64,000 nucleotides of DNA from Escherichia phage moha, in the sequence record MN850590.1. One strand, 5' to 3'. Under the pieces are notes generated by a model. The model was given only the letters and a program-made list of their open reading frames with translations. It was not told where the DNA came from and did no database searches. Below are positions 5,607 through 52,307 of this stretch, piece by piece. The translations under genes and the position numbers were made by a program. Numbering within the stretch: the stretch's first letter is position 1; every line of letters starts with the position of its first letter.

Positions 5607-6110
5607 ATGAGTCTTTACACTGAACTGAATAAAAAATCTGAAGAATCTGCTGAAACTATTTTTAAAAACGTGCAAAAGCGTATTTTGGAAAAGATGTATG
5701 ATGCAGCATCTAAAGGTGAAAAATCTTGCCGGTTTCCGATGAGGTGTTCTTCTGATTTATGCGCAAATACTATTGAATGGCTGGAAAGTGAAGGTCTTAC
5801 GGTAGAGAAAAACCCGGCGACTTCTATTGACGGCGAATCATATATTAGTATTTCTTGGGATAAATCAAGGGTAGAAGAGAAAGATGGTGATTGGGTTGTA
5901 GATGTTAAAACTTCTGATGGTGGACGTTCTGTTGAAGTTTCGGCTGTAGTTAAAGGTACCCACGAACAAAGGACTTGGGGTTGGGGTGGTGAAGAAAAAG
6001 AAATTGTTCTTAGTGTGATTGCCAGGTCAACTAGTAATAAAATTGCACAAAGCATCATTGACGCTGCAATTGCTGAAGCAGAAAAAATTTGCAAAATTAA
6101 AAATAAATGA
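5607..6110 (+). CDS. hypothetical protein
   Basis: 167 aa; SD agagga. Confidence 0.8.
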   Translation: MSLYTELNKKSEESAETIFKNVQKRILEKMYDAASKGEKSCRFPMRCSSDLCANTIEWLESEGLTVEKNPATSIDGESYISISWDKSRVEEKDGDWVVDVKTSDGGRSVEVSAVVKGTHEQRTWGWGGEEKEIVLSVIARSTSNKIAQSIIDAAIAEAEKICKIKNK

Positions 6111-6169
6111 TGTACAAACGCCAAGGATGGTGGTACTATAGACTTATCAACTACAGAGGAGTAAACAAA

Positions 6170-6334
6170 ATGACTACTTTAATTATTTGGTTCGATGAAA
6201 ATGAAGAAACATACTGTGTGAATATTGGTGAAAGTCCAATGCCTGAATTTGAATCCTCGGATAAAAACTCTGTTGTATCTTGGGCTGAAGGTTATAAAGC
6301 AGCTAAAGGTGACGTTGAAATAATTTACATCTAA
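6170..6334 (+). CDS. hypothetical small protein
   Basis: 54 aa from ATG 6170 with SD agagga; upstream part of listed ORF overlaps previous gene. Confidence 0.6.
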   Translation: MTTLIIWFDENEETYCVNIGESPMPEFESSDKNSVVSWAEGYKAAKGDVEIIYI

Positions 6335-23571: not shown

Positions 23572-23609
23572 AGACCTATCGAAACGAAATGAGTAAATTG
23601 GAGAATAAA

Positions 23610-24590
23610 ATGTTCAACGTTCAAATCAAAAAAGGTATCTATCGTAATAACGAAATCTCTGGTTCTTATGTTGCCACAAAGACCTGGTTCCCGGCAAAGC
23701 TTAATCCTGAATGTTCCCACTTAGGTGACGGTAAAATTTTCGTTATGATTGATGGTTCTGAACGTGGAGTATGGGTCTTCAAATCAGACATCGTAATGGA
23801 AGGAGTTGAGACATCACCAGTTGCAGTTGTTGAAAGCACTGAAGATATGAAAACTCGTATCAACAAACGCTTTAAAGTAATGAACATGATGACGAATGGT
23901 ATTATCGATGGCAAAATTCGTTCACTCATTATTTCAGGTGCAGCCGGTATTGGTAAGACGTATTCTCTGGATAAAGCACTTAATAATGCTAATGATAATG
24001 GTTTCATCAAATACAAAAGCATTAATGGTAAAATCTCTGGTATAGGTCTTTACGAACAACTTTGGCTCAACCGTGATGCAGACAGCGTTCTCTTAATCGA
24101 CGACGTTGACGTATTCTCGGATATGGACATCTTGAACCTTCTTAAAGCAGCATTAGATACCGGTGATAAACGCAAAGTTTGCTGGAGCACTGCATCATCT
24201 TATCTTGATGATAAGGGTATCGATAAAGAATTTGAGTTTGAAGGTACTATCGTTTTCATTACAAACGTTGATATCGATAAAGAGTTAGAACGTGGTTCGA
24301 AACTTGCTCCTCACCTTCAAGCTTTAGTATCTCGTTCAGTATATCTCGATCTTGGAGTACACTCTAATGAAGAGATTATGGTTCGAGTTGAAGATGTAAT
24401 ATTATCTACTGACATGATGCAGAAACGTGGCTTGACTGATGCTGAAACGTACAAAGCATTGTCCTGGATGAAGGCTAACGTATCTCGTCTTCGTAATGTG
24501 TCATTACGTACAGCTCTTTATGTAGCAGATTTTATTTCAACTGATAAAGATGGTTGGGAGGAAATCTCTGAAGTAACTTTACTGAAATAA
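23610..24590 (+). CDS. AAA+ family ATPase
   Basis: 326 aa from ATG 23610; Walker A GAAGIGKT, Walker B LLIDDVD. Confidence 0.85.
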   Translation: MFNVQIKKGIYRNNEISGSYVATKTWFPAKLNPECSHLGDGKIFVMIDGSERGVWVFKSDIVMEGVETSPVAVVESTEDMKTRINKRFKVMNMMTNGIIDGKIRSLIISGAAGIGKTYSLDKALNNANDNGFIKYKSINGKISGIGLYEQLWLNRDADSVLLIDDVDVFSDMDILNLLKAALDTGDKRKVCWSTASSYLDDKGIDKEFEFEGTIVFITNVDIDKELERGSKLAPHLQALVSRSVYLDLGVHSNEEIMVRVEDVILSTDMMQKRGLTDAETYKALSWMKANVSRLRNVSLRTALYVADFISTDKDGWEEISEVTLLK

Positions 24591-24728
24591 GCTTATAGGA
24601 AGTTCTGAGGTAACAAAAGCCATAAAGATGAATAATCATATGGCTTACCTCAAAGAAGGACACCAGGAACCTACTGAGGGCATAGAAATATTTAAAAATA
24701 ATGATGTACAAATCAAAGAGGATATGTT

Positions 24729-25016
24729 ATGGATTTTATGCAAAAAATTAAAGCCGCAGTCGAACTCTATGCTCATCGTATGGTTAGTTCTACAATGCAA
24801 TATAGCGAGGAGGTTCGCCAGGATTCTTCCTTGAAAGGAAAAACTAAAGCCTTAATTACCTTAGACCGTTTGCAAAAGAATGCCATAGAGATGCTCCAGT
24901 ACGACAAGGGTGTATATAAGAAAGAACGGGAAGAGAAACTTAAATCTGAAAAATTACAAAAAATCCCGAAGTCTGTTTGGTTCAGTGGAAAAAATACCGA
25001 AAAAAGTTTCTTTTAG
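24729..25016 (+). CDS. hypothetical protein
   Basis: 95 aa. Confidence 0.6.
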   Translation: MDFMQKIKAAVELYAHRMVSSTMQYSEEVRQDSSLKGKTKALITLDRLQKNAIEMLQYDKGVYKKEREEKLKSEKLQKIPKSVWFSGKNTEKSFF

Positions 25017-25074: not shown

Positions 25075-25602
25075 ATGAACGCTAAAGATATTTTCAACCT
25101 GGTAAATTATAACGACGGTAAATTTAAATCTGAAGCACAAAGCAAGTTCTTTAATGACGTTGCTTATGGTAACGAGATTACCGTGGACGGAGGACAGATT
25201 TTCAAATCTCGTTGGAATTGGATTGTTATCATCGATTCAGTTGGAATTGTGGAAGTCTACAAAAACACTAACAAAAAACGTACATTATTCTGGTCTCGTG
25301 AAACTAACGAGCAGTACAAAAAGGATAAAGCATCTCGTTTATCCAAAGTAACCCAGGAAGATATCGACTTCATCAAGAAAGATATCTTAATGTATGAAAA
25401 TTTAATCGCTGAAGACCAGGCAGTACTCGATAAGTTCGATGAAATTAAAGCTTCTCGAGAAATCCCTGACTTCATGAAAGAAACAGTAAACGAACGTTAC
25501 GCTCTCACTTCAGAACGTATCTTGAACTACACAAAACAGAAAGCAGAACGCATTAGTACTCTTCATAAATTCGAAGAACGTTTAAAGACGGTTCACGCAT
25601 AA
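25075..25602 (+). CDS. hypothetical protein
   Basis: 175 aa. Confidence 0.8.
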   Translation: MNAKDIFNLVNYNDGKFKSEAQSKFFNDVAYGNEITVDGGQIFKSRWNWIVIIDSVGIVEVYKNTNKKRTLFWSRETNEQYKKDKASRLSKVTQEDIDFIKKDILMYENLIAEDQAVLDKFDEIKASREIPDFMKETVNERYALTSERILNYTKQKAERISTLHKFEERLKTVHA

Positions 25603-25664
25603 ACGCTTTACCCAAGGACGGGTTATAATGGTTCTGAGTTCCAATTCAATCTGAGGAAATAGTT

Positions 25665-26636
25665 ATGAGTATTACATCTGATGCAGTAAAACATGAAATT
25701 GCCGGTTTATGTGCTTCACAGATTAAAGTATGGTTTGATGGACATAATGATCGACGTTCACTCAATTATGAGCAAATCGCTATTCAGGTTCACCAATTAC
25801 TGGTTAGTAAATTTGATTTCCACATGCCGTCTGAAATCTATACTAATCTGCCACGAGCAATCATTAAAGCATGTAAAGGCTACGGAAAATCAATGGCAGA
25901 TGGAATCTTCAACGCGTTGAATAAACTTAACGTTCTGTCGATGATTAACTCTAATAATATATTGCGTAATCTCGGACGTACCGATTTGTTTGGACGTGAA
26001 CAGGGTAAAATGCCTTTGAAACAGATTATTGCTCATCTTAACCAGAACCAAACACGTTTTCTGGCTGTAGCAGCTCGCTTACAGACTGGCTTAGACCGAC
26101 AGATGAACTTTAAAACTCATCCACGTTATTCAGGTTCATCTGAGTTCTTTAATTGTGAATTACAAAAAGTTGCTGGTAAAACGGTCTTAGTGGTTCGTGT
26201 AACGTTTGAAGGACGACGTCAAGGATATTTTGACTTAATCGGTTCTGGGCTTAAACACTGTGGATTTATTGACGAAGTTGATATCAAGCGTGACGGCATT
26301 GGATATCGTATTGGGTATGTTTGTACTCTTAAAGAAGAAGAAATTTCAGAACCAGTGCCACCTAAGGTTAAAGCTCCTAAAGAAGTTACATACGATATTA
26401 ACCGAGATGATGCTCTTCAAGGCCTTATTGATGAACTAAACGAGGAAGTTATTCCAGTACAGAAATTTGAATCAAAGCACGCTGAGCAAATCAAATACTT
26501 TGAAGCTTTGATTAACGAACTTAATGTAACTATTCAACAGACCGACGATGAAATCTCACGATTAGCAGGGATGAACGGTAAAAATAAAACAGAACGAGCT
26601 AATCTCATTCAAGTAGTAAAACTTCTTAAGGATTAA
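25665..26636 (+). CDS. hypothetical protein with C-terminal coiled coil (first of three similar-architecture genes)
   Basis: 323 aa. Confidence 0.85.
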   Translation: MSITSDAVKHEIAGLCASQIKVWFDGHNDRRSLNYEQIAIQVHQLLVSKFDFHMPSEIYTNLPRAIIKACKGYGKSMADGIFNALNKLNVLSMINSNNILRNLGRTDLFGREQGKMPLKQIIAHLNQNQTRFLAVAARLQTGLDRQMNFKTHPRYSGSSEFFNCELQKVAGKTVLVVRVTFEGRRQGYFDLIGSGLKHCGFIDEVDIKRDGIGYRIGYVCTLKEEEISEPVPPKVKAPKEVTYDINRDDALQGLIDELNEEVIPVQKFESKHAEQIKYFEALINELNVTIQQTDDEISRLAGMNGKNKTERANLIQVVKLLKD

Positions 26637-26638
26637 TA

Positions 26639-26839
26639 ATGGAAATTATTTGTTTTATTTTTGTATATATTGTGTTAGGGTTCATTATAGTAATGATTGG
26701 ACGAAACCACATGGAAATTAGTTCAGGCGGTGAAGCTGTATTTGCCACATTTATTTGGCCTATTCTTGCTTTATTTGGAATAGTTTGGATTGTATCCTGG
26801 CCTTTAGCTAAACTTTATGAAAAAATATTTAGACTATAA
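26639..26839 (+). CDS. small membrane protein
   Basis: 66 aa, two TM helices. Confidence 0.7.
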   Translation: MEIICFIFVYIVLGFIIVMIGRNHMEISSGGEAVFATFIWPILALFGIVWIVSWPLAKLYEKIFRL

Positions 26840-26858
26840 TACGAAAATTGGAACATGT

Positions 26859-26920
26859 AATGAATGCATTAAAATCATAAAACAGTTTACAACCAAGGAT
26901 GGTTGGAGTATAATAAATCT
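26859..26920 (+). repeat. direct repeat copy A (~62 bp), includes promoter
   Basis: near-identical to 27849-27910 (2 mismatches); begins with AATGAATGCATTAAAATCATAA, which in copy B is the 3' coding end of the upstream gene. Confidence 0.85.
26885..26914 (+). promoter_or_regulatory. early promoter
   Basis: -35 GTTTACA / 17 bp / -10 TATAAT. Confidence 0.6.
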
Positions 26921-26940
26921 TTCAACATGAGGAATACAAA

Positions 26941-27870
26941 ATGGCTTTTATTACACGCAAAGAACTTATCAAAGAATTTACTTCGTATAACGACAAAACC
27001 ACCTACCCTAAGCGTAAAGCTCGGACTCCTGCGCAGATTGAACAGATATGTGCGTACTACGGGATTAATTCTCGCAAATTCAGCGACTTTGAATGTGCTA
27101 CCAATGTGCCTGTTAAAGAGCTCACTAAAAATGGCGAGTTCGCTCGTGTTCTGGCTAAACAGAAACTTCGTAATTTTTGTATTGGCGGCGAAGGCCAATA
27201 TTTTGCTAAGCAGTTCCGAAATAACCTTAACAATCTGATGGCTATTGCTTCTCGTATTCGTTCGCAATCAGTTAACATGAAGCATCTGAAGTATACTTAC
27301 GATAAGTTAGAAATCATGGTTATCAGTGAGAACGAGTTCACTCTCACATATAAACCCGAGAACGATAACGTCGCTCGTGTATTCAACCAAGCGTTGGAAG
27401 TGTTAGGCGATAATATTCATCAGATTAAAGCAATTTATTCTCGTGAGCTTAATATTATCGACCCTGTCAAGAATAAGGGTCATATCGCTATTCAAGCTCG
27501 TGTATCTGTTGGTAAAAAAGTTCCTGCACCGTGGTGGCACAAAGACTCTGAGTATTACCAAAATCTTAAAAAGGAAAATGCAATGTTCGAAGGCAATATT
27601 ACAGCAACACCAGTCGGTAATGCAGAGGTTCTAAGCGCATATTCTACTGCTCCATCTATATACACTTCCGCGACGACTAAACTGGAAATCTCTAACAACC
27701 TTCTTCCAGCCGAAGATTACCATTACAACCAAATCAAGGTCACTGTGGACCAACTGTCTGTTGAACTTGACAAAGCACAAGCTAAGCTTCGTGATGCTCA
27801 AAGTGTTGTAACGAATCTCCAGTTGCAGTATTCTAAACTTTTTAACGCAATGAATGCATTAAAATCATAA
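26941..27870 (+). CDS. hypothetical protein with C-terminal coiled coil
   Basis: 309 aa. Confidence 0.85.
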   Translation: MAFITRKELIKEFTSYNDKTTYPKRKARTPAQIEQICAYYGINSRKFSDFECATNVPVKELTKNGEFARVLAKQKLRNFCIGGEGQYFAKQFRNNLNNLMAIASRIRSQSVNMKHLKYTYDKLEIMVISENEFTLTYKPENDNVARVFNQALEVLGDNIHQIKAIYSRELNIIDPVKNKGHIAIQARVSVGKKVPAPWWHKDSEYYQNLKKENAMFEGNITATPVGNAEVLSAYSTAPSIYTSATTKLEISNNLLPAEDYHYNQIKVTVDQLSVELDKAQAKLRDAQSVVTNLQLQYSKLFNAMNALKS

Positions 27871-27910
27871 AATAGTTTACAACCAAGGATGGTTGGAGTA
27901 TAATGAATCT
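27849..27910 (+). repeat. direct repeat copy B
   Basis: see copy A. Confidence 0.85.
27875..27904 (+). promoter_or_regulatory. early promoter
   Basis: -35 GTTTACA / 17 bp / -10 TATAAT. Confidence 0.6.
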
Positions 27911-27932
27911 ATCTTAACGAGAGGAAAATATT

Positions 27933-28883
27933 ATGACACGTTCACATTACATTGAATACTTTGCAGGTCTTATCGCTAACGTTCATGCCCAACGTGCTTC
28001 TGGTGCACTAGGATTTGATGTTCCACACCGAGATGTAGTAAGTGGTATTCTTCGCGATTTTGGTACATACATAGGCCAAGAAAATCATATCTGTAAAGAT
28101 ACTCAAAATGCGTATTCTCATTCGTTAGGGACGTTGCTTCAATGGTTCAAACGTTCTCGTTTATTATCTTCTACTGTAGCTCGCGATAACATTAAAAACT
28201 TTATGAAGCCGAGCTTTATTAAATCTGTGACATCTAAAACCGATTTGGTTGAATTCACTATTGTTAATGATGTTAAAAAGACTCATTTGGCTGATTGGTT
28301 ATCTACCATTCCTGAAACTAAATTTGCTGATAAATTTGCTTGTGAATTCAATAACCAAGTGAATATGCTTTTTAAACATTCTCGTAAATTATTCACAGGC
28401 GGCGATGATCGTACAAATAAAGTTCATGTTAAAGATTGGGTTACTGCAGTATTCAAACCAACCGGTAATGGTAACGCATCATTATCAATTGATATCCAGG
28501 TTCCTTATTACTACTCACGTAATCTCGGTACCATGAAAGCCGAAGAAATTAATAAGCGCAACAAAACCATTCGTTCGCTGTCTTATAAACTTCGCATGAT
28601 GTTAAGAATCATGGACGTGGTAGAAATGTATGATGAAACCGAAGATAATGGTTCAATGTTATACAGTTCTCGCATTCAAATTAAGTTGAAGAACCCTAAC
28701 GAGTATAAGCCTAAGCCTATTAAAGAGCCTAAAGCAGAAAAAGTTGATAACTTAAGAGAAGAACGCGAATATCTCAAATCTCGTCTGAAAGAAGTCGAAG
28801 CCCAGATTGCAGAACAAACTAAATCGTTAAAAGCTCTGAATGCGAAAGCGGATGGTTTACGAAATGCCATTGAGGTGTTATAA
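27933..28883 (+). CDS. hypothetical protein with C-terminal coiled coil
   Basis: 316 aa. Confidence 0.85.
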   Translation: MTRSHYIEYFAGLIANVHAQRASGALGFDVPHRDVVSGILRDFGTYIGQENHICKDTQNAYSHSLGTLLQWFKRSRLLSSTVARDNIKNFMKPSFIKSVTSKTDLVEFTIVNDVKKTHLADWLSTIPETKFADKFACEFNNQVNMLFKHSRKLFTGGDDRTNKVHVKDWVTAVFKPTGNGNASLSIDIQVPYYYSRNLGTMKAEEINKRNKTIRSLSYKLRMMLRIMDVVEMYDETEDNGSMLYSSRIQIKLKNPNEYKPKPIKEPKAEKVDNLREEREYLKSRLKEVEAQIAEQTKSLKALNAKADGLRNAIEVL

Positions 28884-29188
28884 TGAAACTACGTCTTTTA
28901 GAGGATATTGATATGAGCACTAATCATGGCTTGGTTAAGTTTATTGACGATAGTTCAAAGATTGAATTTGTTCAGCGAGATAAAATCCACGGTGAAGAAG
29001 AGTTCGTTCCTCCGGCATGGAACGAAATAATGAAAATGGTTGAACGACGTGAAAATGCTGCCAAATCGGCAGCAAAACATCCATGTCCGGAATGTGGAAC
29101 TATCCAAGTCCAACTGGTTAACTGGACCAGTGATAACTTGAAATTGAAATGCCGTAAATGCTTCCACAAATTTGAGAGAACATTATAA
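28883..29188 (+). CDS. zinc-ribbon protein
   Basis: 101 aa; CPECG...CRKC. Confidence 0.75.
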   Translation: MKLRLLEDIDMSTNHGLVKFIDDSSKIEFVQRDKIHGEEEFVPPAWNEIMKMVERRENAAKSAAKHPCPECGTIQVQLVNWTSDNLKLKCRKCFHKFERTL

Positions 29189-29601
29189 TGAGATATAGCC
29201 TTCGTTGTTTTATCGCAGCTTTAGTTTTTGCTATTATTCCATTCATTTGGAACAGCCAGAATACTTACATGGAAACTAAAGTAATTCCTGTGGAGGTAGT
29301 GGAATTAATCTCAGGTCAATCTACAGGAAAATATTCTAAATTAGAATTTATTGCAGTCTATAAAGATGAGCAAGGACGAGTTTTTGACAGGCGTGTATCG
29401 CCATCGTTTTATACGCTTCTGAATAAAGGTGATACGATAGCTATAGAAATTCGTGAGATGGATATCAAACAAACTACCAAAGATAACTTGATTTGGTTCT
29501 TTGGTACAGTGTTGTTGGTTTCTATCTGTATCACAGGTTTTATTACATGTATTGTATTTGGCATTGCATATTTAATTGATGAAAGGAAAAATAATGTTTA
29601 A
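29188..29601 (+). CDS. membrane protein
   Basis: 137 aa; N- and C-terminal TM helices. Confidence 0.75.
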   Translation: MRYSLRCFIAALVFAIIPFIWNSQNTYMETKVIPVEVVELISGQSTGKYSKLEFIAVYKDEQGRVFDRRVSPSFYTLLNKGDTIAIEIREMDIKQTTKDNLIWFFGTVLLVSICITGFITCIVFGIAYLIDERKNNV

Positions 29602-29857
29602 AGTGTACGGGTATGACTCTACTATTCATAAATGCATTTATTGTGATAATGCGAAACGATTGCTGACTGTTAAGAAACAACCATTCGAATTCATTAATGT
29701 TATGCCGGAAAAAGGTGTGTTCGATGATGAGAAAATTACTGAGCTTCTGGTTAAGCTTGGACGTGAATCACAAGTTGGATTGACTATGCCTCAGGTGTTT
29801 GCTCCTGACGGAAGTCACATTGGTGGATTTGACCAACTACGAGAATATTTTAAATGA
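29594..29857 (+). CDS. nrdC: thioredoxin/glutaredoxin NrdC
   Basis: 87 aa; MFKVYGYDS..HKCIYCDNAKRLL matches T4 NrdC. Confidence 0.9.
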   Translation: MFKVYGYDSTIHKCIYCDNAKRLLTVKKQPFEFINVMPEKGVFDDEKITELLVKLGRESQVGLTMPQVFAPDGSHIGGFDQLREYFK

Positions 29858-30150
29858 GTATTGATTTAACTTTCCCTGGCCCTTATGACCAGGGTGAATT
29901 AGAAGCTTTATTATATCAAGAAATGTGCTCTCGTGCCAAGAACGATATTCAGTATGCTATCGATAATCCATGGGGCGAATTTCGAGTAATGATGGGTAAT
30001 CGAATCATCGGTGTCCAATGGCGATTCGTTGGCCTTGAGCCTGAGGACTATGAAGAAAACGAGCACGGTGACTGGATTCCTGTTGGTGAATATCACTGGG
30101 AATACGGTGGTCCTGATTTTGAAGTCTCTTGTTCATGGGTAGAACAATAA
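29854..30150 (+). CDS. hypothetical protein
   Basis: 98 aa; ATGA overlap. Confidence 0.7.
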   Translation: MSIDLTFPGPYDQGELEALLYQEMCSRAKNDIQYAIDNPWGEFRVMMGNRIIGVQWRFVGLEPEDYEENEHGDWIPVGEYHWEYGGPDFEVSCSWVEQ

Positions 30151-51921: not shown

Positions 51922-52307
51922 TGCCCCGTGTAGAAAACATGCTTAATCTTTGTTTTGATGTCGATGATTGCATCACGGAATGGAATAACAATCGTGATTA
52001 CGTGAACTTCAAACCAGACGTCGAAATGGTGTCTGCCATTAATGCCCTGTATGATGCAGGGCATACCATAACGCTTTACACTGCTCGTGGTATGAAGTCA
52101 GTAGGTCCTGGTCGTATAGCAATTGACATTCTCCCAAGTCTGATTCAGAACTTGGAAAACATTGGTTTGAAGTACCATAATTTGCTAACACATAAACCAG
52201 TATATGATTGGATTATCGACGACAAAGCTATGCGTCCTGATGAATTCAAAGCTCTTATGAATAAAGGCGAATTCGAAACATTTAAATCATATAAACCAAA
52301 TCTATAA
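51921..52307 (+). CDS. HAD-superfamily phosphatase
   Basis: 128 aa from ATG 51921 (TAATG overlap); motif I FDVDDCIT, later TARG and IIDDK. Confidence 0.75.
   Translation: MPRVENMLNLCFDVDDCITEWNNNRDYVNFKPDVEMVSAINALYDAGHTITLYTARGMKSVGPGRIAIDILPSLIQNLENIGLKYHNLLTHKPVYDWIIDDKAMRPDEFKALMNKGEFETFKSYKPNL

What the first reader, a model, noticed from the sequence alone, without database searches (positions are those of the whole stretch)
25665..28883. Tandem trio of ~310-320-aa coiled-coil-tailed proteins with a duplicated 62-bp junction
Three consecutive genes (323, 309, 316 aa) share an architecture of N-terminal domain, Lys/Pro-rich linker and C-terminal coiled coil. The 62-bp sequence at 27849-27910, which includes the last codons of the second gene plus the promoter of the third, is repeated almost exactly at 26859-26920 upstream of the second gene, where the coding remnant is non-coding. 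This is a footprint of duplication or cassette recombination.
Basis: seen in the sequence. Interest (0 to 1): 0.5.

Follow-up and report, generated by a model that had tools for sequence, protein, structure and literature searches.

The report
Recombination scar flanking a phage accessory gene
In a T4-like coliphage, the same promoter-plus-hairpin element sits on both sides of one non-essential gene and carries a leftover of that gene's end. This is a scar of the already described cassette-type recombination by which these phages gain and lose accessory genes, and the three ~310-aa genes are known but separate families, not demonstrable copies of each other.

Summary
Three ORFs of 323, 309 and 316 aa and a 65-nt direct repeat (62/65 identical, 990 nt apart) are at the stated coordinates. 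The window is a Mosigvirus (RB69-like; proteins A and B are 100% identical to phage moha). The genes are homologs of T4 NrdC.6, NrdC.5 (Pfam DUF7235) and NrdC.3. They show no pairwise sequence similarity. Only profile links through NrdC.4, a family absent from this window, tie C firmly and B tentatively together; A is unlinked. The repeat consists of two PeSL-type elements (early promoter with a hairpin in the spacer) flanking gene B. Relatives share a 27-nt identical core at the A>B and B>C junctions. Twenty-one sequenced phages carry the exact deletion product (A-core-C). The window carries the reciprocal, duplication-type junction (B-tail-core-B-leader). Upstream of it lies a ~230-bp Dhakavirus-like insert: a 66-aa membrane ORF plus an 8-codon stub of a foreign nrdC.5 gene. 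The mechanism (PeSL-mediated modular shuffling) is published, so this is a clean new instance and not a new kind. T4 NrdC.5 counters the Dsr1 defence, so the block is probably a counter-defence cassette array.

The parts
25603..25664 (+). nrdC.8>A junction element. It is middle-promoter-like (MotA-box-like GCTTTA 25605-25610, TATAAT 25624-25629) with the spacer hairpin ACCC-AAGGAC-GGGT (25610-25623), i.e. 'PmSL'-like.
   Evidence: Sequence. An annotated relative calls it a T4 middle promoter. Hairpin family and covariation.
25665..26636 (+). Gene A, 323 aa: homolog of T4 NrdC.6 (precomputed Pfam PF26899, phrog_2257). Its last codon and stop (GAT TAA) are of the Dhakavirus type.
   Evidence: (E 6e-21 to T4 NrdC.6).
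26637..26865 (+). Dhakavirus-like insert that is absent from all close relatives. It holds the 66-aa two-transmembrane ORF (26639-26839, phrog_7899) and a 25-nt stub of the 5' end of a Dhaka-type nrdC.5 gene (26841-26865, ATG mutated to ACG).
   Evidence: (70-81% nt identity to Dhaka/Gapriver phages; no record covers 80% or more of the query).
26859..26923 (+). Repeat copy 1: a non-coding 22-nt stub of the gene B tail (26859-26880), -35 GTTTAC (26885-26890), hairpin CAACC-AAGGAT-GGTTG (26890-26905) and -10 TATAAT (26909-26914). The 27-nt recombination core is 26888-26914. The B leader with SD GAGG (26929-26932) follows.
   Evidence: (11/12 match to the sigma-70 consensus).
26941..27870 (+). 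Gene B, 309 aa: NrdC.5 family (Pfam DUF7235, E 8e-103; phrog_2351). This is the cassette bracketed by the repeat.
27849..27913 (+). Repeat copy 2: the coding tail of B (27849-27870), -35 (27875-27880), hairpin (27880-27895) and -10 (27899-27904). The core is 27878-27904. The C leader with SD GAGG (27921-27924) follows.
27933..28883 (+). Gene C, 316 aa: NrdC.3 family (57% identity to T4 NrdC.3; precomputed Pfam PF26897, phrog_1435). It is a remote paralog of NrdC.4.

Best explanation
The region is part of the nrdC hyperplastic region of a T-even-type phage (Mosigvirus, phage moha). It is an array of accessory-gene cassettes. Each cassette is an intergenic promoter element with a small hairpin between -35 and -10 (a PeSL, or for middle promoters a PmSL) followed by an ORF of about 310 aa of the NrdC.6, NrdC.5 or NrdC.3 family. 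In this lineage the elements on either side of gene B share a 27-nt identical core, and the phage's homologous recombination system uses that core as a crossover site. A crossover between the A>B and B>C elements deletes B, which is the state seen in 21 sequenced relatives. Its reciprocal gives a [B-tail]-core-[B-leader] junction, as in a B-B tandem or a circularised B cassette. The window carries this second junction. Of the upstream B copy only the last 22 nt survive. The rest has been replaced, through joints at short homologies (CTTCTTAAGGA on the left, GAAT on the right), by a ~230-bp Dhakavirus-like segment that brings a 66-aa membrane ORF and 8 codons of a foreign nrdC.5 gene. Shown here: the anatomy, both reciprocal junction types, the foreign origin of the insert, and selection on the hairpin. 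Inferred: the order of events, the promoter activity, and that the 56-65-nt repeat now makes B prone to excision. The proteins are three separate known families. By homology to T4 NrdC.5, which overcomes the Dsr1 defence, B is probably a counter-defence factor, and the array is probably a counter-defence gene set that is being shuffled.
For: The repeat and ORFs are verified. Close relatives (SA79RD, L004, L005, mogra) have the same 27-nt core at A>B and B>C but lack the small ORF and the B-tail stub upstream of B. A synthetic A-end + B>C intergenic + C-start query matches 21 phage records as one contiguous piece, up to 95.9% identical. AV110 and p000v are annotated with A directly followed by C. 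The six-way junction alignment shows that AV110/p000v = left flank of A>B + core + right flank of B>C, and that window copy 1 = left flank of B>C + core + right flank of A>B. The insert is 70-81% identical to Dhaka/Gapriver phages, where the same small ORF sits between nrdC.6 and nrdC.5. The homology runs into the first 8 codons of their nrdC.5 and then switches to the B tail at GAAT. Genes A and B form a ~2-kb mosaic patch (66-92% nt identity) inside flanks of 95-100%. The two copies are the best sigma-70 matches in 24.5-29.7 kb (11/12). Hairpin stems co-vary across junctions and genera: 91% of cells paired vs 62% in shuffles (0/500), covariation score 0.75 vs at most 0.22 when slid. The PeSL definition and mechanism are published, with the stem-loop between -35 and -10 as the commonest subclass and the T4/PST promoter form TTTACW-N17-TAYWAT (PMC2839356; PMC4122927). 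T4 nrdC.5 restores infection of dsr1 cells (PMC9391042).
Against: No intact B-B tandem was found in 50,697 phage records. The listed best rows are all two-piece permuted matches to a single B gene. The duplication-type junction occurs nowhere else in viral or metagenome contigs. The intermediate is therefore inferred, and the arrangement rests on one genome. The hairpin is small: the RNA folding energy of the repeat is not better than shuffles (z -0.1 to -0.6). No U-tract follows it, and no + strand terminator is predicted, so the 'terminator' half of the PeSL concept is not supported here. B is only ~23% identical to T4 NrdC.5, so the anti-Dsr1 function is a weak transfer. I did not check genome-wide that the 21 'B-less' phages lack B elsewhere.
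Confidence: 0.8

Rival explanations
1. Circle re-integration instead of unequal crossover. A B cassette excised as a PeSL mini-circle, whose closure junction is exactly B-tail-core-B-leader, re-entered a genome that already carried the Dhaka-type small ORF and nrdC.5. Nearly all of the resident nrdC.5 gene was lost.
For: The window's copy-1 junction is exactly the predicted circle junction. Mini-circles of this kind were shown experimentally in RB49/phi1 (PMC2839356). The 5' stub of a foreign nrdC.5 lies immediately upstream.
Against: Integration by homologous crossover at a PeSL would not leave a B tail joined to codon 8 of another gene, so an extra illegitimate joint is still needed. The backbone on both sides is Mosigvirus-like, not Dhaka-like. 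The data cannot separate this from tandem duplication followed by replacement.
Confidence: 0.2
2. The repeat is simply a regulatory element kept twice by selection (UP element, promoter and hairpin), with no recombination history.
For: The 26 nt upstream of -35 are 81% A+T, which is UP-element-like. The core is conserved at both junctions in all relatives. The hairpin is under selection.
Against: The upstream 22 nt are identical to the coding tail of B, stop codon included. They are absent from the A>B junction of every close relative. Other early promoters in the window share neither the spacer nor the upstream sequence. Deletion variants with crossover in the core exist.
Confidence: 0.04
3. 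A, B and C (with T4 NrdC.4) are ancient tandem duplicates of one gene, so the trio is a single, highly diverged paralogous family whose junction elements were copied along with the genes.
For: The genes have the same size, are adjacent, have the same type of junction element with an AAGGAY hairpin at nearly every junction, and share a similar C-terminal helix and end motif. NrdC.3~NrdC.4 scores 97-98% probability, E 6e-11 to 8e-13. NrdC.5~NrdC.4 scores 58-91%, E 1e-4 to 1e-6. AF2 gives the same order of secondary-structure elements in A and C.
Against: No pairwise BLASTP signal. The three are separate PHROGs and Pfam families. A has no profile link to any other family (best P about 0.002-0.07). 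The B~NrdC.4 link weakened when more sequences were added. Both models are of low confidence (pLDDT 50-54) and the fold searches were uninformative.
Confidence: 0.3
4. Assembly artefact: the insert and upstream repeat copy are a chimera created when a repeat-containing region of a mixed phage lysate was assembled.
For: The arrangement is found in one genome only. It combines sequence of two genera.
Against: The small ORF is intact and only ~80% identical to any known Dhakavirus, so it is not contamination by a sequenced phage. Both joints fall at microhomologies with reading frames preserved for A and B. The two repeat copies differ at a site that is polymorphic among relatives.
Confidence: 0.03

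Closest known systems
PeSL / PmSL cassettes of T4-type phages (Arbiol et al. 2010, PMC2839356; Comeau et al. 2014, PMC4122927)
   Same: An intergenic element in a hyperplastic region. It is laid out as the upstream stop codon in A+T-rich DNA, a sigma-70-like early promoter of the T4/PST form TTTACW-N17-TAYWAT, a stem-loop between -35 and -10, then SD and ATG. Copies flank accessory ORFs that differ between close relatives, and crossovers map inside the element. The nrdC.8>A element has a MotA-box-like GCTTTA and corresponds to the PmSL variant.
   Different: The stem-loop here (NNCC-AAGGAY-GGNN) is not the stem consensus reported for RB49/phi1 (G-run/C-run) or for PST/T4 (AGNA-loop-TCNT). It has no terminator features. 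The flanked genes are ~310-aa members of conserved families, not small ORFans. The repeat also includes 22 nt of coding sequence.
T4 NrdC.5, the counter-defence factor against Dsr1 (Srikant et al. 2022, PMC9391042)
   Same: Gene B belongs to the same Pfam family (DUF7235) and occupies the same position in the nrdC block. In T4 the gene is non-essential and is lost in spontaneous deletions.
   Different: Identity to T4 NrdC.5 is only ~23%. No functional test exists for the Mosigvirus version, and the mechanism of Dsr1 inhibition is unknown.
Integron gene cassettes
   Same: It works in a comparable way: single genes bounded by short conserved recombination sites, excised as circles, giving arrays with variable content. 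The PeSL authors draw this analogy themselves.
   Different: There is no integrase and no attC/attI sites. Each cassette has its own promoter. Recombination is presumably by the general phage homologous recombination system.
Morons of lambdoid phages
   Same: Autonomously expressed accessory genes inserted between other genes.
   Different: Morons are not flanked by conserved repeats that mediate their movement. Here the flanking elements are the crossover sites.

Membership tests
PeSL (promoter-early stem-loop) element | Intergenic position in a hyperplastic region, starting at the stop codon of the upstream gene in A+T-rich DNA and ending with the SD and ATG of the next gene | tested here: met
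   Copy 2: B stop at 27868-27870, SD 27921-27924, ATG 27933. Copy 1: stub stop at 26878-26880, SD 26929-26932, ATG 26941. The 26 nt upstream of -35 are 81% A+T against 63% for the window.
PeSL (promoter-early stem-loop) element | Sigma-70-like early promoter (T4/PST form TTTACW-N17-TAYWAT) | tested here: met
   TTTACA-17-TATAAT in both copies, 11/12 to the consensus, the two best matches in 24.5-29.7 kb. GTTTAC-N18-TATAAT occurs 6 times in the window, all on the + strand, against 0.14 expected. Promoter activity was not measured.
PeSL (promoter-early stem-loop) element | Stem-loop within or next to the promoter (most commonly between -35 and -10) | tested here: met
   CAACC-AAGGAT-GGTTG at 26890-26905 and 27880-27895. 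The stem co-varies in 9 distinct junction elements: 91% paired vs 62% in shuffles (0/500), 4 of 5 pairs with changes on both sides. The folding energy of the whole repeat is not better than shuffles.
PeSL (promoter-early stem-loop) element | The stem-loop acts as a transcription terminator or attenuator | tested here: inconclusive
   There is no U-tract after the stem, and no + strand terminator-like site in 24.5-29.7 kb. A real test needs a reporter assay.
PeSL (promoter-early stem-loop) element | Association with insertions, deletions or replacements between close relatives, with crossovers inside the element | tested here: met
   B is precisely deleted in 21 records, with the crossover inside the 27-nt core. 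The insert next to copy 1 is unique to the window.
PeSL (promoter-early stem-loop) element | Formation of cassette mini-circles during infection | not testable with these tools
   This needs inverse PCR or deep sequencing of infected cells or virions.
NrdC.5 / Pfam DUF7235 (gene B) | Full-length match to the family model above Pfam's gathering score | tested here: met
   PF23882, E 8.3e-103, 344.5 bits against a cut-off of 30, residues 18-308. BLASTP to T4 NrdC.5 gives E 1e-8.
NrdC.5 / Pfam DUF7235 (gene B) | Neutralises the Dsr1 defence system | not testable with these tools
   This is known only for T4 NrdC.5 (PMC9391042). B is ~23% identical to it.
NrdC.6 family (gene A) and NrdC.3 family (gene C) | Significant full-length similarity to the T4 prototypes | tested here: met
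   A vs T4 NrdC.6: E 6e-21. A vs Dhakavirus NrdC.6: E 3e-23. C vs T4 NrdC.3: 57% identity, E 4e-121. Precomputed Pfam families are PF26899 and PF26897.
Single paralogous family comprising A, B and C | Detectable homology between the members (sequence, profile or fold) | tested here: inconclusive
   BLASTP: none. hhalign: C~NrdC.4 solid, B~NrdC.4 58-91% probability, A none. AF2 pLDDT is 50-54 and Foldseek was uninformative.
Thioredoxin (the name given to A and B in GenBank records) | Thioredoxin or glutaredoxin domain | tested here: not met
   No thioredoxin-fold Pfam hit in A, B or C, even at E<=1. The label has spread from the neighbouring nrdC gene name.

The most novel reading that the evidence does not exclude
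NrdC.6, NrdC.5, NrdC.4 and NrdC.3 are one very diverged superfamily of early-expressed counter-defence proteins with a common build: a variable target-binding N-region, a bb-a-bb module, a hypervariable linker and a C-terminal oligomerising helix. Each would be aimed at a different host immune system (NrdC.5 at Dsr1). The conserved AAGGAY hairpin in their junction promoters would be a dedicated signal, for a recombination or RNA-processing factor, that keeps the array shuffling as cassettes.
Probability: 0.15. Interest if true: 0.6.

Novelty: new member of a known kind. Interest (0 to 1): 0.3.

Why it matters
This is a very clean natural example of promoter/hairpin-mediated cassette exchange in T-even phages. 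Both reciprocal junction types of one crossover can be read in sequenced genomes, and the crossover can be placed inside a 27-nt core. It extends the PeSL picture from small ORFans to ~310-aa conserved accessory genes, one family of which has a demonstrated counter-defence role. The practical prediction is that gene B in this phage is now bracketed by a 56-65-nt repeat and should be lost at a measurable rate. That matters if B determines which defence-carrying hosts the phage can infect, for example in phage-therapy cocktails. It does not reveal a new kind of element or mechanism.

Tried and rejected
(1) Pairwise BLASTP of A, B and C gave nothing. (2) Searches against PDB sequences with profiles of A, B and C gave no hit at E<=1, apart from two coiled-coil-type chance hits for A. 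(3) AF2 models of C and A had pLDDT 53.5 and 49.9 because only close relatives were available for the alignments. I used them for secondary-structure order only. Foldseek against BFVD was uninformative: the self-hit had TM 0.28, and no NrdC.5, NrdC.4 or NrdC.3 entries appeared among A's hits. (4) An exhaustive HMM search of 1.84 billion representatives with the B profile found only B's own cluster. (5) The word-indexed homolog searches reached only close relatives, and the viral-contig locus search gave 7 loci. (6) The search for an intact B-B tandem gave only permuted two-piece matches to single B genes among the best rows. (7) Exact-pattern searches for the chimeric joint and for the duplication-type junction found nothing in viral and metagenome contigs, and the small ORF's exact product is not on record elsewhere. 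(8) The first promoter pattern used a spacer that was too short and found nothing; this was corrected. (9) RNA folding of the repeat as a whole was not better than shuffles, so I rejected the idea of a large structured RNA. (10) The T4 genome review was not available. The T4 transcription review mentions extra consensus regions in early promoters but does not describe this hairpin.
Full report
**Where we are.**
The window is from a T-even-type phage. Megablast of 25000-29500 hits 636 phage records, mostly Escherichia and Shigella phages. The best hits are Mosigvirus (RB69-like) at 92-93% identity. Proteins A and B are 100% identical to proteins of Escherichia phage moha. The finding lies in the block upstream of nrdC. 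The conserved neighbours are an NrdC.10-like ATPase (23589-24590), NrdC.8 (25075-25602), NrdC.2 (28883-29188), NrdC.7 (29188-29601), NrdC (29576-29857), endonuclease VII and NrdD.

**Checking the observation.**
- The three ORFs are as described: 323, 309 and 316 aa.
- The direct repeat is 26859-26923 / 27849-27913, 65 nt, 62/65 identical, spacing 990 nt.
- Copy 2 holds the last seven codons of gene B (stop included), GTTTAC, an 18-nt spacer and TATAAT. Copy 1 is non-coding.
- Six GTTTAC-N18-TATAAT sites occur in the window, all on the + strand, against 0.14 expected. Only these two share the spacer. The repeat is therefore far more than promoter hexamers.
- Two details need correction. A 66-aa two-transmembrane ORF (26639-26839) separates the first and second gene. 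The linker of B is not Lys/Pro-rich.

**What the three genes are.**
- A is a homolog of T4 NrdC.6 (E 6e-21).
- B is a homolog of NrdC.5 (Pfam DUF7235, E 8e-103).
- C is a homolog of NrdC.3 (57% identity).
- They belong to three PHROGs and three Pfam families.
- BLASTP finds nothing between any pair.
- With family alignments built from 17 loci, hhalign links NrdC.3 to NrdC.4 firmly (97-98% probability, E down to 8e-13). NrdC.4 is a fourth member of the block in T4 and is absent from this window.
- hhalign links NrdC.5 to NrdC.4 only tentatively: 91% with few sequences and 58% with more. NrdC.6 is linked to nothing.
- The AF2 models of C and A are of low confidence (pLDDT 53.5 and 49.9). They give the same order of elements: about 150 helical residues, bb-a-bb, a disordered linker and a long C-terminal helix. 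The fold searches were uninformative.
- A shared layout is therefore plausible. Common ancestry of B and C through NrdC.4 is possible. Paralogy of the whole trio is unproven.
- None of the three has a thioredoxin domain, despite that label in many GenBank records.

**The junction elements.**
Nearly every gene-to-gene junction with an intergenic spacer in the nrdC.8-to-nrdC.3 block has the same kind of element. This holds in Mosig-, Tequatro-, Dhaka- and Gapriver-viruses. The element is a promoter (early-type GTTTAC or MotA-box-type GCTTTA) whose spacer holds a hairpin with a constant loop, AAGGAY, and a stem that changes by compensatory substitutions. The one clear exception is T4 nrdC.6>nrdC.5, where the annotated 70-nt gap looks like frameshifted coding sequence.

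On nine distinct elements, 91% of cells pair against 62% in shuffles (0/500). Four of five pairs change on both sides. The covariation score is 0.75, against at most 0.22 for slid controls.

This layout matches the published PeSL/PmSL definition. The stem-loop between -35 and -10 is the commonest subclass, and TTTACW-N17-TAYWAT is the T4/PST promoter form. The stem sequence differs from the published consensus, and I see no terminator features.

**The recombination history.**
In the close relatives SA79RD, L004, L005 and mogra, the A>B and B>C elements share a 27-nt identical core, TACAACCAAGGATGGTTGGAGTATAAT, with different flanks.

I built the junction expected if B were excised by a crossover in this core. 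Twenty-one phage records contain it as one contiguous match of up to 95.9% identity. In AV110 and p000v, A is annotated directly next to C. The alignment shows left flank of A>B + core + right flank of B>C.

Copy 1 in the window is the reciprocal: left flank of B>C (the B tail) + core + right flank of A>B (the B leader). This is the junction of a B-B tandem or of a circularised B cassette. The part that is really duplicated is 56 nt with one mismatch, at a site that is polymorphic among relatives.

**The foreign insert.**
The relatives go from the A stop to the core in about 5 nt. The window has roughly 250 extra bases.
- The insert is 70-81% identical to Dhaka- and Gapriver-viruses, where the same small ORF lies between nrdC.6 and nrdC.5.
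- The homology starts inside the last codon of A. The window has GAT TAA like Dhakavirus, where Mosigvirus relatives have GAA TGA.
- It continues through the first eight codons of the Dhaka-type nrdC.5 gene (23/29 nt, ATG changed to ACG).
- It switches to the B tail at a shared GAAT.

The upstream cassette is therefore a wreck: 8 codons of a foreign nrdC.5 fused to 7 codons of B. Genes A and B as a whole form a ~2-kb patch of 66-92% identity within flanks of 95-100%.

I found no intact B-B tandem and no second instance of the scar. The order of events is therefore inferred. It could be tandem duplication followed by replacement, or circle re-integration.

**Function.**
The only experimental handle is T4 nrdC.5. 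It is a non-essential early gene whose expression restores infection of cells carrying the Dsr1 sirtuin defence (PMC9391042). Three further observations fit a counter-defence gene set under arms-race pressure and frequent exchange:
- the indel-rich linkers;
- the presence/absence polymorphism of B, which is missing in 21 records while 161 records match the B query;
- the different block compositions in different genera.6-.5-.4-.3 in T4.6-.5-.3 in Mosigvirus and .6-small-.5-.4 in Dhakavirus.

For B in this phage, at ~23% identity to T4 NrdC.5, this remains an inference.

One possible consequence of the scar is that B now has a consensus GTTTAC -35 and an A+T-rich upstream stretch, where relatives have ATGTAC directly after the A stop. 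This may raise its early expression, but that was not tested.

**Verdict.**
The 'cassette recombination' reading is right and can be made precise. The 'trio of related proteins' reading is at best partly right. The mechanism is already described, so this is a new and unusually legible instance of a known kind.

Noticed in passing
window 6095-6175: A fourth CCAAGGATGG hairpin-promoter element (GTACAAACGCC-AAGGAT-GGTGGTACTAT) lies between the 167-aa ORF ending at 6110 and the next gene. This promoter subtype is therefore not confined to the nrdC block. The 10-mer occurs 4 times in the window against 0.09 expected.
   Followed up: partly
window 26906-26909 and 27896-27899; also the Dhaka, Gapriver and T4 nrdC.4>nrdC.3 junctions: A GGAG lies immediately 3' of the hairpin in most early-type elements (GGTTG-GAG-TATAAT). 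From my own knowledge, GGAG is the cleavage motif of the T4 RegB endoribonuclease, so these could be processing sites on read-through transcripts. This is speculation and was not tested.
   Followed up: no
L002 (T4 NC_000866) nrdC.6/nrdC.5 junction, record ~51996-52130: The T4 reference nrdC.6 (275 aa) looks frameshifted near its 3' end. Another frame reads through the annotated 70-nt gap as DDEIFRLSGLSSKAKSEREKLIKIVDLLKS*, which matches the C-terminus of NrdC.6 in the window and in Dhakavirus. T4-like relatives (L007-L010, RB32) have a 295-296-aa version.
   Followed up: partly
P0022 (RB69 NrdC.5, 300 aa): The RB69 reference NrdC.5 diverges completely from all relatives over its last ~60 residues. 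That pattern is typical of a frameshift in the linker region.
   Followed up: no
window 29800-30150: The 98-aa ORF 29854-30150 downstream of nrdC is absent from SA79RD, L005 and mogra but present in L004. It is another presence/absence polymorphism in the same hyperplastic region. L004 also lacks window ~24600-24750.
   Followed up: no
window 28855-28884: A consensus GTTTAC-N18-TATAAT lies inside the last codons of gene C and overlaps the start of nrdC.2 (the C stop and the nrdC.2 ATG overlap as TAATG). It has no hairpin in the spacer.
   Followed up: no
GenBank records of relatives: Most genes of the block (nrdC.2-nrdC.11 homologs, including A and B of phage moha) are annotated 'thioredoxin' in many records. 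The label has evidently spread from the gene-name prefix nrdC. No thioredoxin domain is detectable in A, B or C.
   Followed up: yes
L006-L008 (Tequatrovirus-like viral contigs), NrdC.3 genes: Some T4-like contigs carry an NrdC.3 allele that is 77-78% identical to the window's C, whereas T4 itself is 57% identical. Their neighbouring NrdC.4 and NrdC.5 genes are T4-like (91-97%). This indicates allele exchange of single cassettes between genera.
   Followed up: no
window 27000-27100 (gene B codons ~16-70): The N-terminal ~55 residues of B differ sharply from all other Mosigvirus B proteins (66-70% nt identity, against about 90% for the rest of the gene). This lies directly downstream of the scar and suggests that the recombinant tract extends into B.
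   Followed up: partly
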